From assembly GCA_963662545.2 (NCBI GenBank), contig CAXXLL010000002.1, forward strand, positions 1,344,001-1,408,000: DNA of 64,000 nt, read 5' to 3'. The notes under the pieces were generated by a model. It saw only the letters and a list, made by a program, of their open reading frames with translations, was not told the DNA's origin and searched no databases. Position numbers and translations under genes: made by a program. This document shows, piece after piece, positions 26,740-28,696 of the stretch (positions are counted from its first letter, which is position 1; each line of letters begins with the position of its first letter). The DNA comes from Gammaproteobacteria bacterium (GTDB lineage: Bacteria; Pseudomonadota; Gammaproteobacteria; Ga0077536).

Positions 26740-26847
26740 ATTCGACTTCGACGTGCAATCTTGCTCCCGACGGGAATAAAAAAATGTTCAAGACTCCGTT
26801 AAACGCCCCGCCACCTAACAAGTGACTGTGGTTTGAAGTCAATAGAA

Positions 26848-27798
26848 TTAGACTAGTTCGGGGTTCCAAGGGGTTCTGTTTTTGACCATGACATTGAGGA
26901 TGGTCAACAGTTTTCGCATGCAGGCGACGAGTGCGACTTTGGGTACTTTCCCCGCGGCGATTAATCGTTGGTAGGTGCGTTTAATTTTCGGATTGCACTG
27001 GATAGCGGACAGCGTTGCCATAAACAATACGGTCCGAATACGGTAACGTCCGCCGCGTATTTTTCGTTTACCTTTAAAGGCCTCACTTTCTTTGTTCATG
27101 GGCGCGACCCCGACCAGGGCTGCGATCTGTTTACGGTTAAGGTGGCCGAGTTCCGGTAGTTCGCTCAACAAGGTATAGGTGAGCACTTTGCCGACGCCTT
27201 TGGTGCTCATTAACACATCGCGTGTGTCGGACCACCCGGGGGATTTATCGATGAGTCGGTCGAGGCGCGTGTCGAGTTTGGCGATTTCAGCATCGAGGTA
27301 TTTCAGATGCCGTTGGATGGTGGTGCGCAGGGTGTCGGGCATGATCGCCAACCGATTTTTCTCCATGGTCGCCATTTCAAGGAGTTGGCTGCGTCGGACT
27401 AACAGGTCGCTGATTTGGCGTGTTTGTTGAGATTTAGGGGGTGTGGCGCGCGGCTTGAGTGCTTCAGCGAAGTGGGCAATGGCGGCGGCGTCCAGGGCGT
27501 CGGTTTTGGCCAATCGGCCGGTGGCTTGAGCGAATTTGCGCACGTGGGTTGGATTGGCGACGCTGACGGCCAACCCCGCCTGCTGTGCGGCACACACGAA
27601 ATCGCGCTCGAGACGCCCGGTGGCCTCAATGACCACCCGCGTGGGTTGAATGGACTTCAGTTGCTTTACCGCTGAGGTGATACCGGCTTTGGAATTGTCG
27701 ACACTGAATGCGGTACCTGACGGGCGCACGTAGAAATCCAGTTGCTGTTTGCCGGTGTCGACACCGACGTTAATTTCGTTGGGATTTGTAAGTTTCAT
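26848..27798 (-). CDS. IS110-family DEDD recombinase/transposase
   Basis: [28 protein letters not shown] and [11 protein letters not shown] motifs. Confidence 0.95.
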
Positions 27799-27804
27799 AA
27801 GATA

Positions 27805-27995
27805 AGCTGACTCTGCCTTGCAATACGGGCTCGGGGCCCTAATGACTGTTCGAGTTGTTACTTAAGAGCTATGCACCGCTCACACTTGTTAGCGGTCTCT
27901 GCACGCAGGAACCGTGGATCAATCGAGCTGGTGCATAGAGGCCTTCAGCCGTTACTGAAGGTGGGCCCCAATTTACCCTTTCTTTGCAAAAACGA
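27805..27995 (-). ncRNA. Putative IS110 bridge RNA (boundaries approximate)
   Basis: Stem ctatgcacc/ggtgcatag (27869-27938) encloses guides TTGATCCA and CTAACAA matching the attC target; a downstream segment ACAGTCA matches the donor end. Confidence 0.8.
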
Positions 27996-28119
27996 ACCAT
28001 ACAAATGGATCAACCGGACACGTTACAGCGCGCTTCTTTGGAGCAGCTACGCATTTTCGATCCAAAGAAGCGCACTGTAACGCGCCGGTTATCCTAGCGT
28101 TAGGTGGCAGTAACCGAAT

Positions 28120-28509
28120 ATGACCGAGTACGAATATTTAGACGTTATGAATTCTATGCGGGATTCTGGCGGATTCCACGCCATGAACTATATTGCCATC
28201 CTATTCGCCTATTTGATCGCGGGCTATTTCGCTGGGCACCTACTGTCGCGGTTTCAGGTCATAGCTCTTTCGGCTTTCTACTTAATTTTGTGCCCTATGC
28301 CCGGCATTGCAGCCTTCGAAGTGATTTTAGATTACGGAGCACTCGTCACTGAGTACTACAACCAGTTCAAGCCAGGTGACCGTTTGCCACTGTTTGCGCG
28401 ATACGGCGCCAACCTATGGCTGTTCGTTTTTCTTGGCACGTTAGCTCTAAGCATATATTTCATGTTTCAGGCGAGACGTTCTAAACGCGGTCGAGAAAAT
28501 GCCACTTAG
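28120..28509 (+). CDS. Cassette 2: small membrane protein (about 3 TM), unknown function
   Basis: ORF between attC sites; FAYLIAGYFAGHLLSRFQ. Confidence 0.75.
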   Translation: MTEYEYLDVMNSMRDSGGFHAMNYIAILFAYLIAGYFAGHLLSRFQVIALSAFYLILCPMPGIAAFEVILDYGALVTEYYNQFKPGDRLPLFARYGANLWLFVFLGTLALSIYFMFQARRSKRGRENAT

Positions 28510-28586
28510 ATTTCCAAACGAAGTGCAACTGAGCGGGAGCCGAGATATAAAGAAAATATGTCCCCGGCTTCGTTAAACGCCCCGCC

Positions 28587-28696
28587 ACCTAACAAATGGA
28601 TCAACCGGACGTGTTACAGCGGGCTCATTTGAAACGGCTTCGCATTATCGCTCCAAAGAAGCGCGCTGTAACACGCCGGTTATCCTAGCGTTAGGT
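28587..28696 (+). other. attC site (intact, 110 bp)
   Basis: acctaac...gttaggt with arms ggatcaaccggacgtgttacagcg / cgctgtaacacgccggttatcc. Confidence 0.92.

What the first reader, a model, noticed from the sequence alone, without database searches (positions are those of the whole stretch)
26813..28604. IS110 bridge recombinase whose RNA guides are programmed against integron attC sites
Seen: the IS110 element sits exactly inside attC. The minus-strand target is TTGATCCA-TT-TGTTAG and the donor junction is ACAGTCA-CT-TGTAT. The ~200-nt non-coding region upstream of the recombinase has a stem (27869-27877/27930-27938) enclosing TTGATCCA (27915-27922, identical to the left target arm at 28006-28013) and CTAACAA (27886-27892, complementary to the right arm). 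A second segment, ACAGTCA (27843-27849), equals the donor left arm. The right guide extends to CTAACAAGTG, complementary over 10 nt to the post-recombination junction, as expected for 'handshake' pairing. Known: IS621-type IS110 elements use bridge RNAs, and attC-targeting elements were described mainly in the IS1111 group. Inference: this is an IS110-group bridge system that homes to the attC R''/L'' region. An empty matching target remains at 28589-28604.
Basis: partly seen in the sequence, partly recalled or inferred. Interest (0 to 1): 0.85.

Follow-up and report, generated by a model that had tools for sequence, protein, structure and literature searches.

The report
attC-homing IS110 bridge-RNA insertion sequence
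A small jumping gene of the RNA-guided IS110 type sits inside an integron recombination site, and its own guide RNA loops match that site, so it is a natural integron-homing member of a known kind of element.

Summary
A ~1.18-kb IS110-family element (window 26823-28003, minus strand) splits an integron attC site between R'' and L''. A 100%-identical second copy sits at the same position in another attC, and 15 exact empty targets remain in the genome.

The 205-nt region upstream of the 316-aa DEDD/Ser recombinase has the two-loop bridge-RNA architecture. This rests on covariation in 41 aligned homologues: 94.9% of cells pair, against 34-41% when partners are slid.

The right target guide, handshake guide and left donor guide columns covary with the flanks. 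The left target guide matches its own flank far better than non-cognate flanks (0 of 5000 permutations).

Homologues with this right target guide form one well-supported branch of 35. In 32 of its 36 loci with a right junction, the flank starts with the complement of the attC R'' core, against 0 of 52 other relatives.

Refinements:
- The family core is CT, but this genome's attC offers TT.
- The left guide does not cover the core.
- Here the handshake bases pair with target and donor alike.

No RNA or transposition data exist. It is a new member of a known kind. attC homing was found in print only for the IS1111 subgroup.

The parts
26799..26820 (+). 5' part of the interrupted attC (cassette orientation). 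It holds the R'' core ACCTAAC at 26813-19. Read on the minus strand, 26813-26820 is the right target arm (TGTTAGGT).
   Evidence: Comparison with the intact attC at 28571-28700. The reconstructed site folds as an attC-type hairpin with R''/R' and L''/L' pairing and single-base bulges.
26821..26822 (-). Core dinucleotide at the right-end junction. It reads CT on the minus strand, which is the donor-type core.
   Evidence: The right-end junction is CT in 89 of 92 related loci.
26823..28003 (-). Body of the IS110-type insertion sequence, lying between the two core dinucleotides.
   Evidence: Boundaries come from the empty-site comparison and from the second copy, which has different flanks.
26823..26829 (-). 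Left donor arm (ACAGTCA), the last bases of the right end.
   Evidence: Identical to the left donor guide at 27843-27849. Donor positions 11-12 equal alignment columns 125-126 in 41 of 41 homologues, against 51-55% expected.
26837..26842 (-). TTGACT, a candidate -35 box that would face a -10 box only in the circular junction.
   Evidence: Read. TTGAC is conserved in the right ends of homologues. Function is inferred from IS621/ISEc21.
26848..27798 (-). 316-aa DEDD/Ser recombinase (transposase). Candidate catalytic residues are D14, E58, D100, D103 and S238.
   Evidence: D14, D100, D103 and S238 are invariant in 9 homologues. E58 lies in the IEATG motif that aligns to IS621.
27799..28003 (-). 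Non-coding left end, the predicted bridge-RNA gene.
   Evidence: MFE -76.2 kcal/mol, z -3.75, 0 of 200 shuffles fold as well.
27869..27938 (-). Target-binding loop module. Closing stems are 27930-27938 / 27869-27877, enclosing an internal loop and a distal hairpin.
   Evidence: Helix 1 has 11 of 12 pairs with changes on both sides and 97.2% of cells paired.
27915..27922 (-). Left target guide, UUGAUCCA. It has the same sense as the left target arm at 28006-28013.
   Evidence: Cognate left guides match their own flanks: 12 of 20 clade members have runs of 6 nt or more, against 2.1% of 380 non-cognate pairs, and 0 of 5000 permutations reach the observed mean.
27885..27892 (-). Right target guide, CUAACAAG. 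It is complementary to core plus TGTTAG, which is the complement of the attC R'' core.
   Evidence: Columns 69-73 are complementary to right-target positions 1-5 in 90-100% of 41 sequences, against 30-38% expected.
27883..27884 (-). Handshake guide (UG), complementary to the CA that ends the left donor arm. Here it is also complementary to the CA that ends the left target arm.
   Evidence: Column 76 is complementary to the last donor base in 40 of 41 sequences and to the last target base in 9 of 41. This element is one of the 9.
27810..27855 (-). Donor-binding loop module. The outer stem is 27852-27855 / 27810-27813 and the inner hairpin is 27836-27839 / 27827-27830.
   Evidence: Helices 3 and 4 have 94.5% and 97.0% of cells paired. 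The pair 116/164 is C-G in 21 and U-A in 19 sequences.
27843..27849 (-). Left donor guide, ACAGUCA.
   Evidence: Variants ACAGUCU, ACAGUCG, ACAGUUG, ACGGUUG, AUAGUCA and AUACUCG each match their own right end.
27817..27823 (-). Right donor guide, UUGCAAG. It pairs with the core plus the first bases of the left end (CTTGTA), with one G-T wobble.
   Evidence: Read. Two loci with left end AGTAT (L107, L116) have GCUAG instead of GCAAG. The TT-core element L126 has GCAAAC.
27996..28003 (-). Start of the left end: right donor arm TGTATGG (27997-28003) and candidate -10 box TATGGT (27996-28001).
   Evidence: TGTAT is conserved at the left end of homologues. The promoter role is inferred.
28004..28005 (-). 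Core dinucleotide at the left-end junction. It reads TT on the minus strand, which is the target-type core.
   Evidence: The left-end junction is CT in 68, TT in 9 and AT in 1 of 78 loci.
28006..28105 (+). 3' part of the interrupted attC: L'', the central part, L', and R' GTTAGGT at 28099-28105. Read on the minus strand, 28006-28013 is the left target arm.
28571..28700 (+). Neighbouring intact attC holding an empty exact target at 28589-28604.
   Evidence: It is one of 15 exact empty 16-mers in the genome.

Best explanation
This is an intact IS110-type (IS621-like layout) insertion sequence that homes to integron attC sites by means of its own bridge RNA.

Proposed mechanism:
1. The region upstream of the recombinase gene encodes an RNA with a 5' hairpin, a target-binding loop and a donor-binding loop.
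2. [quoted passage not shown] 3. In the donor loop, ACAGUCA and UUGCAAG hold the abutted ends of the excised circle.
4. A DEDD/Ser recombinase tetramer then exchanges strands at the core dinucleotide. The element lands between R'' and L'', antisense to the cassettes, without a target duplication.

The element belongs to a lineage in which the right target guide is nearly fixed on the conserved integron core site, while the left target guide varies with the host's attC arm.

What is shown here: the anatomy, the boundaries, the structure covariation, the guide-flank covariation and the attC nature of the sites. What is inferred from IS621 and ISEc21: that the RNA is made, that it binds the protein, and the strand-exchange chemistry.
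For: Family and catalytic motifs.

Two 100%-identical copies lie at the same position of two different attC sites.

Structure: 16 of 22 RNAalifold pairs show compensatory changes. On my 23-pair structure, 94.9% of cells pair against 34-41% when partners are slid, 17 pairs change on both sides, and 0 of 500 shuffles reach any measure.

Guides:
- Right target guide columns are complementary to the flank in 90-100% of sequences, against 30-38% expected.
- The left donor guide equals the donor in 100%.
- The handshake column is complementary to the donor in 40 of 41 and to the target in only 9 of 41.
- Left target guide: 0 of 5000 permutations reach the cognate mean, both in the clade (n=20) and outside it (n=21).
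- Over whole non-coding regions of all 71 distinct loci, left-flank runs of 7 nt or more occur in 20 of 71 cognate pairs against 5.9% of non-cognate pairs.

Natural reprogramming:
- Right flank GGTTA goes with guide UAACCAG (L030, L051, L054, L057). L052 also has a GGTTA flank, but its guide reads GUAACAAG, so it does not follow the pattern.
- L045 has GUGCCAAG with flank TGGCA.
- L126 has a TT core at both junctions, with AA in the right target guide and in the right donor guide.

Lineage: a branch of 35 rows has SH-aLRT 100. 32 of 36 clade loci have a right flank starting [TG]GTTA, against 0 of 52 others.

attC nature of the sites: 14 of 26 reconstructed clade sites pass a strict hairpin test, against 0-5 in 20 shuffled runs. 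In Bowmanella (L012) the integron integrase match and the transposase match lie about 1.4 kb apart on the same numbered contig. 4 of 5 host genomes searched have an integron integrase. The own genome has two integron integrases and attC clusters.
Against: - No RNA evidence: no RNA holder was listed (see Tried and rejected). There is no transposition assay and no circle junction.
- The left target guide does not pair with the core here. The base after UUGAUCCA is C, while the target has T.
- The target core is TT, not the family's CT. For IS621, non-CT cores are reported as generally less efficient (passage).
- The handshake bases are complementary to the target as well as to the donor. In IS621 that arrangement locks the complex before strand exchange (passage).
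- Only 2 insertions stand against 15 exact empty sites.
- 8 of 20 clade members have left-guide runs of 5 nt or less with their own flank.
- 12 of 26 clade sites fail my strict attC-hairpin test, and 5 of 20 non-clade sites pass it, so that test detects palindromic sites in general.
- The 41-sequence alignment was my selection out of 73 loci with a left flank.
- The tree is the quick IQ-TREE, rooted at the midpoint.
Confidence: 0.85

Rival explanations
1. The element is an attC-resident IS110-family insertion, but site choice is made by the protein recognising the attC hairpin or the conserved core site. On this view the RNA-flank matches are by-products.
For: The sites are palindromic, structure-prone DNA. 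The right target arm is nearly invariant in the clade, so its match alone cannot separate RNA reading from protein reading. 8 of 20 clade members have poor left-guide matches.
Against: - The left guide covaries with the variable arm (0 of 5000 permutations).
- Compensatory right-guide changes occur for GGTTA flanks, for L045 and for the TT-core L126.
- Outside the clade the same RNA columns track entirely different targets.
- Experiments on IS621 and ISEc21 show RNA-determined targeting (passages).
Confidence: 0.05
2. The element is a decayed or immobile relic. The guides match because they once did, but it no longer moves in this host.
For: - Only 2 copies stand against 15 exact empty targets.
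- The TT core and the target-complementary handshake bases are both unfavourable in IS621 (passages).
- No sigma-70-like promoter was found in the integrated state (0 found).
Against: - The two copies are 100% identical over 1220 bases, in different attC sites on different contigs.
- The reading frame is open and has all catalytic motifs.
- Lack of a promoter in the integrated state is what the junction-promoter model for this family predicts (passage).
Confidence: 0.08
3. It is a member of the already described IS1111-attC group.
For: It has the same niche, the same end of attC and the same antisense orientation (passage).
Against: - The long non-coding region is upstream, not downstream, of the gene.
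- No subterminal inverted repeats link the ends.
- The bottom-strand match lies 5' of the top-strand match, as in the IS110 type and opposite to the IS1111 type (passage).
- The best solved relatives are IS621 and ISCro4.
- No direct comparison with ISKpn4, ISPst6 or ISPa21 proteins was made.
Confidence: 0.02

Closest known systems
IS621 bridge recombinase and bridge RNA (Durrant et al. 2024, PMC11208160; Hiraizumi et al. 2024, PMC11208158; passages read)
   Same: - A DEDD RuvC-like domain plus a Tnp domain with catalytic Ser (PDB 8wt6, E 1.7e-33).
- RNA encoded in the left end upstream of the gene.
- A target loop with the left guide 5' and the right guide 3', and a donor loop of the same design.
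- A CT core in the donor.
- A handshake base next to the right target guide that pairs with the last base of the left donor arm.
   Different: - The target is an integron attC.
- The right target guide is 8 nt including the core, against four bases in IS621 (passage).
- The left guide ends before the core instead of covering it.
- The actual target core in this genome is TT.
IS1111-attC group: ISPa21, ISPst6, ISKpn4, ISPa25 (Tetu & Holmes 2008 and Post & Hall 2009, not held, known only through citations; Siddiquee et al. 2024, PMC11187229, passages read; PMC3001079, passage read)
   Same: - DEDD transposase family.
- Insertion near the 5' end of attC, antisense to the cassettes.
- RNA-guided (seekRNA) target choice.
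   Different: In the IS1111 group the non-coding region and RNA lie downstream of the gene, subterminal inverted repeats are present, and the order of the two strand matches is reversed. Here the region is upstream, no such repeats were found, and the order is the IS110 type.
ISEc21, an IS110-type seekRNA element (PMC11187229, passages read)
   Same: It has an upstream non-coding region, a bottom-strand match 5' of the top-strand match, and a junction promoter formed in the circle.
   Different: Its target is a conserved stretch of IS3-family transposase genes, not attC. Its transposase is longer (358 aa).
Group IIC-attC introns (PMC3001079, passage read)
   Same: They occupy the same niche: the 5' end of attC, antisense to the cassettes.
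   Different: They are retroelements with a ribozyme and a reverse transcriptase. Nothing of that kind is present here.

Membership tests
IS110 family RNA-guided transposase | An N-terminal DEDD (RuvC-like) domain plus a C-terminal Tnp domain with catalytic Ser. | tested here: met
   PF01548 E 2.2e-22 and PF02371 E 1.6e-15. NF033542 scores 200.5 bits against a cut-off of 140. The protein aligns to IS621 through the GxDxxK, IEATG, KTDxxDA and ES motifs. D14, D100, D103 and S238 are invariant in 9 homologues.
IS110 group (as opposed to the IS1111 group) | The long non-coding region lies upstream of the transposase gene. | tested here: met
   There are 205 nt upstream (27799-28003) against 25 nt downstream (26823-26847). 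The criterion comes from passages.
IS110 group (as opposed to the IS1111 group) | No subterminal inverted repeats. | tested here: met
   None of the 25 longest of 34 inverted pairs joins the two ends. The only cross-end pair is the guide/junction pair I6. The 9 shorter pairs were not shown.
IS110 group (as opposed to the IS1111 group) | Phylogenetic placement among reference IS110-group transposases. | not tested
   No reference ISfinder proteins were available. The only evidence is that IS621 and ISCro4 are the best solved relatives.
Bridge RNA (IS621 type) | A structured RNA with two internal loops flanked by conserved stems. | tested here: met
   17 of 23 pairs show changes on both sides, and 94.9% of cells pair against 34-41% when partners are slid.
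Bridge RNA (IS621 type) | In the target loop, the left guide has the same sense as the left target arm and the right guide is complementary to the right target arm. | tested here: met
   For this element, 8 of 8 and 8 of 8 bases match, with G-T at the first core position. For the family.
Bridge RNA (IS621 type) | In the donor loop, the guides match the abutted element ends. | tested here: met
   The left donor guide equals the donor in 41 of 41 sequences at the variable positions. The right donor guide pairs with CTTGTA, with compensatory cases in L107, L116 and L126.
Bridge RNA (IS621 type) | The same core dinucleotide occurs in target and donor and is covered by all four guides. | tested here: not met
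   The donor core is CT and the target core here is TT. The right guides cover the core, but the left target guide does not. The family as a whole uses CT: 68 of 78 left and 89 of 92 right junctions.
Bridge RNA (IS621 type) | The handshake guide is complementary to the donor and not to the target. | tested here: inconclusive
   The family meets this: donor 40 of 41, target 9 of 41. In this element the guide pairs with both.
Bridge RNA (IS621 type) | The RNA is transcribed, binds the recombinase and is required for recombination. | not testable with these tools
   No usable RNA data were found (see Tried and rejected). No Rfam family matched.
Integron attC site (the target) | R''/R' core sites (RYYYAAC ... 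GTTRRRY) and an imperfect L''/L' repeat with extrahelical bases, lying 3' of a cassette ORF. | tested here: met
   ACCTAAC lies at 26813-19 and GTTAGGT at 28099-28105. The fold has single-base bulges. ORFs lie upstream on the + strand. The repeat family forms arrays next to an integron integrase.

The most novel reading that the evidence does not exclude
An undescribed, widely spread lineage of IS110-group bridge-RNA elements has specialised on integron attC sites independently of the IS1111-attC group. It occurs in Alteromonadales, Vibrionaceae, Shewanella, Marinobacter, Methylococcaceae, a Chloroflexota MAG and many metagenomes.

Its guide strategy is split. A near-invariant right target guide is anchored on the universal R'' core site. 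A fast-evolving left target guide tracks each host's attC arm. The lineage also contains natural core reprogramming from CT to TT, with matching changes in both right guides.
Probability: 0.55. Interest if true: 0.6.

Novelty: new member of a known kind. Interest (0 to 1): 0.5.

Why it matters
It gives a natural, comparative confirmation of the bridge-RNA rules in a lineage far from IS621. The rules confirmed are target guides, donor guides, the handshake base and the CT core.

It also shows that integron recombination sites have been colonised at least twice by RNA-guided DEDD elements.

For integron biology, insertion between R'' and L'' separates the two halves of the attC stem. That should freeze the neighbouring cassettes, though this was not tested.

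For tool builders, the clade offers ready-made natural variants: an 8-nt right guide, GGTTA versus TGTTA right arms, a TT-core member, and a target-complementary handshake case. These bear on efficiency rules so far worked out mainly on IS621.

Tried and rejected
Rfam: no family reached even E=1 in 26000-29500. Only two chance hits appeared, a miRNA and a snoRNA, so no curated bridge-RNA model could be used.

RNA evidence: no RNA holder was listed. The one run guessed to be RNA (X1) held 8% of the words.

Read laying: contigs only. There were no joints and no circle or excision junction. The element forms its own 1206-nt unitig at about 2.2-4 times the depth of the left flank in three runs from two studies, which fits two or more copies but is weak evidence. 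One 189-nt X1 contig matches 27860-27991 exactly and then diverges; I could not interpret it.

A 12-nt inverted-repeat test for attC and a 5-nt test with a one-base offset error did not discriminate and were replaced. A strict GTTRRRY regular expression missed many sites.

Column-wise covariation of the left target guide failed the 0.35 threshold, because the register of the match differs by 1-2 nt between subgroups. A register-free test was used instead.

The whole-region, location-blind test is noisy. Non-cognate runs of 6 nt or more occur in 21.5% of pairs, but cognate pairs are still enriched.

The MFE fold of the single sequence pairs the 5' GGGGCCC with the donor-loop GGGCCCC. Homologues are compatible both with this long-range helix and with the local hairpin (read by eye). 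I did not resolve which forms.

The genome search at order level (5 of 81 genomes) and class level (5 of 400) gave few relatives. Single copies were found in each of five host genomes.

A core of CA was considered and rejected, because the base after CA stays with the left arm at both junctions.

The careful tree did not finish. The quick tree was used.

ISfinder names could not be obtained. Supplements of Durrant et al. (target motifs per guide pair) and of Siddiquee et al. are closed and may already list such elements. Tetu & Holmes 2008 is not held.

That an IS110-type attC lineage is not in print rests on searches only.
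Full report
WHAT IS THERE

The window between 26799 and 28700 holds two copies of a ~130-bp repeat with the anatomy of an integron attC site: R'' ACCTAAC, a short spacer, an L''/L' imperfect palindrome with single-base bulges, and R' GTTAGGT. 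The copy at about 28571-28700 is intact. The other is split by about 1.18 kb.

Comparing the two places the foreign DNA between ...CTAACA-AA and ATGGATCAACC..., that is between R'' and L''.

The insert carries one long ORF on the minus strand (26848-27798, 316 aa):
- Pfam PF01548 (DEDD_Tnp_IS110) and PF02371.
- NCBIfam NF033542 'IS110 family RNA-guided transposase', 200.5 bits against a cut-off of 140.
- Alignment over its whole length to the solved IS621 and ISCro4 recombinases (E 1.7e-33 and 1e-32), with the Asp/Glu/Asp/Asp and Ser motifs in place.

The cassette ORFs lie on the plus strand, so the element is antisense to the cassettes.

A second copy, 100% identical over 1220 bases, lies on another contig in a different attC at exactly the same position.

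The genome holds 15 further exact copies of the uninterrupted 16-mer target, all but one of them inside attC clusters, and two integron integrase genes. The window's own cluster is small and lies about 374 kb from the nearest integrase. It therefore looks like an attC cluster without its own integrase.

All strings and coordinates were reproduced. The 10-nt complement between 26815-26824 and 27883-27892, and the 9-bp stem, were also found blind by the repeat finder (I6 and I15).

In mononucleotide shuffles of the non-coding region:
- 38 of 3000 reach the 8-nt left match.
- 3 of 3000 reach the 10-nt right match.
- 0 of 3000 reach both.

IS IT A BRIDGE RNA?

Rfam has no matching family, so I collected relatives:
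- 12 loci from species genomes.
- 10 more through whole-genome searches.
- 80 metagenome loci, the best 80 of 587 confirmed.
- 3 from large Vibrionaceae/Pseudoalteromonas replicons.

The region upstream of the gene is conserved in all of them.

I aligned the last 148 nt before the start codon for 41 loci. I chose these from the 73 with a readable left junction because they had a full-length region and typical spacing.

RNAalifold finds the closing stems of a first module and the outer and inner stems of a second. 16 of 22 pairs show compensatory changes.

Counting a 23-pair structure that I wrote from this gives:
- 94.9% of cells paired, against 34-41% when partners are slid by 1-3 columns.
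- 17 pairs with changes on both sides.
- 0 of 500 shuffles reaching any of the five measures.

The architecture is that of the IS621 bridge RNA: a 5' hairpin; a target-binding module (stem, internal loop, hairpin); then a donor-binding module of the same design.

DO THE LOOPS READ THE FLANKS?

I anchored every locus on its junctions and compared alignment columns with flank positions.

- Right target guide. The five columns 5' of the invariant AG are complementary, in antiparallel register, to the five bases after the core in 90-100% of 41 sequences (30-38% expected).
- Handshake guide. The column 3' of AG is complementary to the last base of the left donor arm in 40 of 41, but to the last base of the left target arm in only 9 of 41. 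This is the pattern described for IS621 (passage).
- Left donor guide. The two variable columns equal the donor in 41 of 41.
- Left target guide. The register of the match shifts by 1-2 nt between subgroups, so single columns fail the threshold. A register-free test is clear.

Register-free test for the left target guide:

| Set | Cognate mean longest run | Non-cognate mean | Permutations reaching cognate mean |
|---|---|---|---|
| attC-type clade (n=20) | 5.85 nt | 3.15 nt | 0 of 5000 |
| Other loci (n=21) | 6.33 nt | 3.52 nt | 0 of 5000 |

In the clade, 12 of 20 have runs of 6 nt or more, against 2.1% of 380 non-cognate pairs.

A location-blind test on all 71 distinct regions is noisier but points the same way. 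Runs of 7 nt or more occur in 20 of 71 cognate pairs against 5.9% of non-cognate pairs.

Against the model, 8 of 20 clade members have runs of 5 nt or less with their own left flank.

Natural reprogramming supports RNA reading:
- Elements with right flank GGTTA carry UAACCAG instead of UAACAAG (L030, L051, L054, L057). L052 is an exception: its flank is GGTTA but its guide reads GUAACAAG.
- L045, inside the clade, has GUGCCAAG and sits next to TGGCA.
- The Salinivibrio element L126 has TT at both junctions, with AA instead of AG in the right target guide and AAA instead of AAG in the right donor guide (read by eye).

THE CORE

| Junction | CT | TT | AT | Loci |
|---|---|---|---|---|
| Left | 68 | 9 | 1 | 78 |
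| Right | 89 | 3 | 0 | 92 |

 The family core is therefore CT, as in IS621.

In this element the right junction is CT and the left junction is TT. The target offered TT, and each junction kept the core of its left-hand partner. That outcome fits top-strand cleavage 3' of the core (passage). This last step is inference.

Three features would be unfavourable if IS621 rules apply (passages):
- The TT core.
- A left guide that stops before the core.
- Handshake bases that pair with target and donor alike.

They may explain why only two of at least 17 matching sites are occupied. This is speculation.

THE LINEAGE AND ITS TARGET

A quick maximum-likelihood tree of 95 distinct transposases was built (the careful search did not finish; midpoint root). 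It puts all 31 sequences with the attC-type right guide on one side of a branch with SH-aLRT 100.

Four others sit with them:
- One has a truncated region that still shows the guide.
- One carries a deletion.
- One is the retargeted L045.
- One is its truncated neighbour, L046.

Among clade loci with a right junction, 32 of 36 have a flank starting [TG]GTTA, the complement of the attC R'' core. None of 52 loci outside the clade does.

Rebuilding the empty sites:
- 14 of 26 clade sites pass a strict test: TAAC...GTTA termini 40-150 nt apart, at least 7 L''/L' pairs, and dG of -10 or lower.
- The same sites with the distal part shuffled pass 0-5 times in each of 20 runs.
- Several more sites look like short attC sites but fall just below the thresholds.
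- 5 of 20 non-clade sites also pass, so the test detects palindromic sites in general. The TAAC/GTTA ends are what make the clade's sites attC-like.

In Bowmanella dokdonensis the integron integrase match and the transposase match lie about 1.4 kb apart on the same numbered contig. In Marinobacter zhejiangensis the coordinates of the two records would put them about 3 kb apart, but I did not check that the numbered contig carrying the integrase is the named contig carrying the element. 4 of 5 host genomes searched have an integron integrase.

EXPRESSION

No sigma-70-like promoter is found in the integrated state on either strand (0 found).

The right end carries TTGACT (26842-26837) and the left end TATGGT (28001-27996). 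In a circle these would be 18 nt apart, which is the junction-promoter arrangement described for this family (passage). This was read from the sequence and not tested.

COMPARISON WITH WHAT IS KNOWN

Mechanistically the element is an IS621-like bridge system. By niche it resembles the IS1111-attC group (ISPa21, ISPst6, ISKpn4, ISPa25), which inserts near the 5' end of attC in antisense orientation (passage) and uses a seekRNA encoded downstream of the gene (passages).

The present element has the opposite layout: an upstream RNA, no subterminal repeats, and the bottom-strand match first. It is therefore not a member of that group, and attC homing appears to have arisen twice.

A Shewanella integron survey reports IS110-family elements in cassette arrays but states that none interrupted attC sites (passage). 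Shewanella members of the present clade do sit next to TGTTA flanks.

In the papers I could search I found no description of an IS110-type attC lineage. ISfinder and the closed supplements of the two 2024 papers may contain one.

VERDICT

It is a new member of a known kind, with a clade-level twist of moderate interest to specialists. Confidence that it is, or recently was, a functional attC-homing bridge-RNA element is 0.85.

Noticed in passing
L126 (Salinivibrio proteolyticus replicon NZ_CP114585.1, locus bases about 300-1700): This clade member has TT at both junctions. It also has AA instead of AG in the right target guide and AAA instead of AAG in the right donor guide, which amounts to a natural whole-core reprogramming. 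Its left donor guide AUACUCG also matches its own right end.
   Followed up: partly
L045 (metagenome locus), non-coding region and right junction: This member sits inside the attC-type clade, but its right target guide reads GUGCCAAG and its right flank starts TGGCA. It looks like a natural retargeting away from attC.
   Followed up: partly
L062 (metagenome locus), right junction: The right end is followed by CT-TGTATG, which looks like the left end of a related element. This could be a tandem or nested insertion, or a junction-like arrangement.
   Followed up: no
window 27860-27991; run X1: A 189-nt contig from a run of another organism matches the target-loop part of the non-coding region exactly over 132 nt. 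It then diverges just where the donor-loop part begins. Depth is low (3.4).
   Followed up: no
own genome: C2:983758-995531, C3:1917900-1949444, C2:1163244-1164504 and the window: There are two integron integrase genes (C2:996723, C3:1527239). Most attC-like sites on C3 lie in a 32-kb cluster about 390 kb from that integrase. Both IS copies sit in clusters far from any integrase.
   Followed up: partly
own genome, attC variants: Four attC sites read TTGATCCA-CT-GGTTAG. They have the canonical CT core and a perfect 9-nt left-guide match, but a G at the first right-arm position that the right guide does not pair with. No site combines the CT core with TGTTAG.
   Followed up: no
related loci outside the clade, e.g. 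L060, L066, L071: Relatives with other guides also sit in strongly palindromic sites. These may be REP-like repeats.
   Followed up: no
window 27961-27970 with 27828-27839, and the same regions in homologues: A long-range helix is possible between the GGGGCCC just 5' of the first hairpin and the GGGCCCC of the donor-loop hairpin. It competes with the local donor-loop hairpin. Homologues such as L099 change both partners compatibly with either fold.
   Followed up: no
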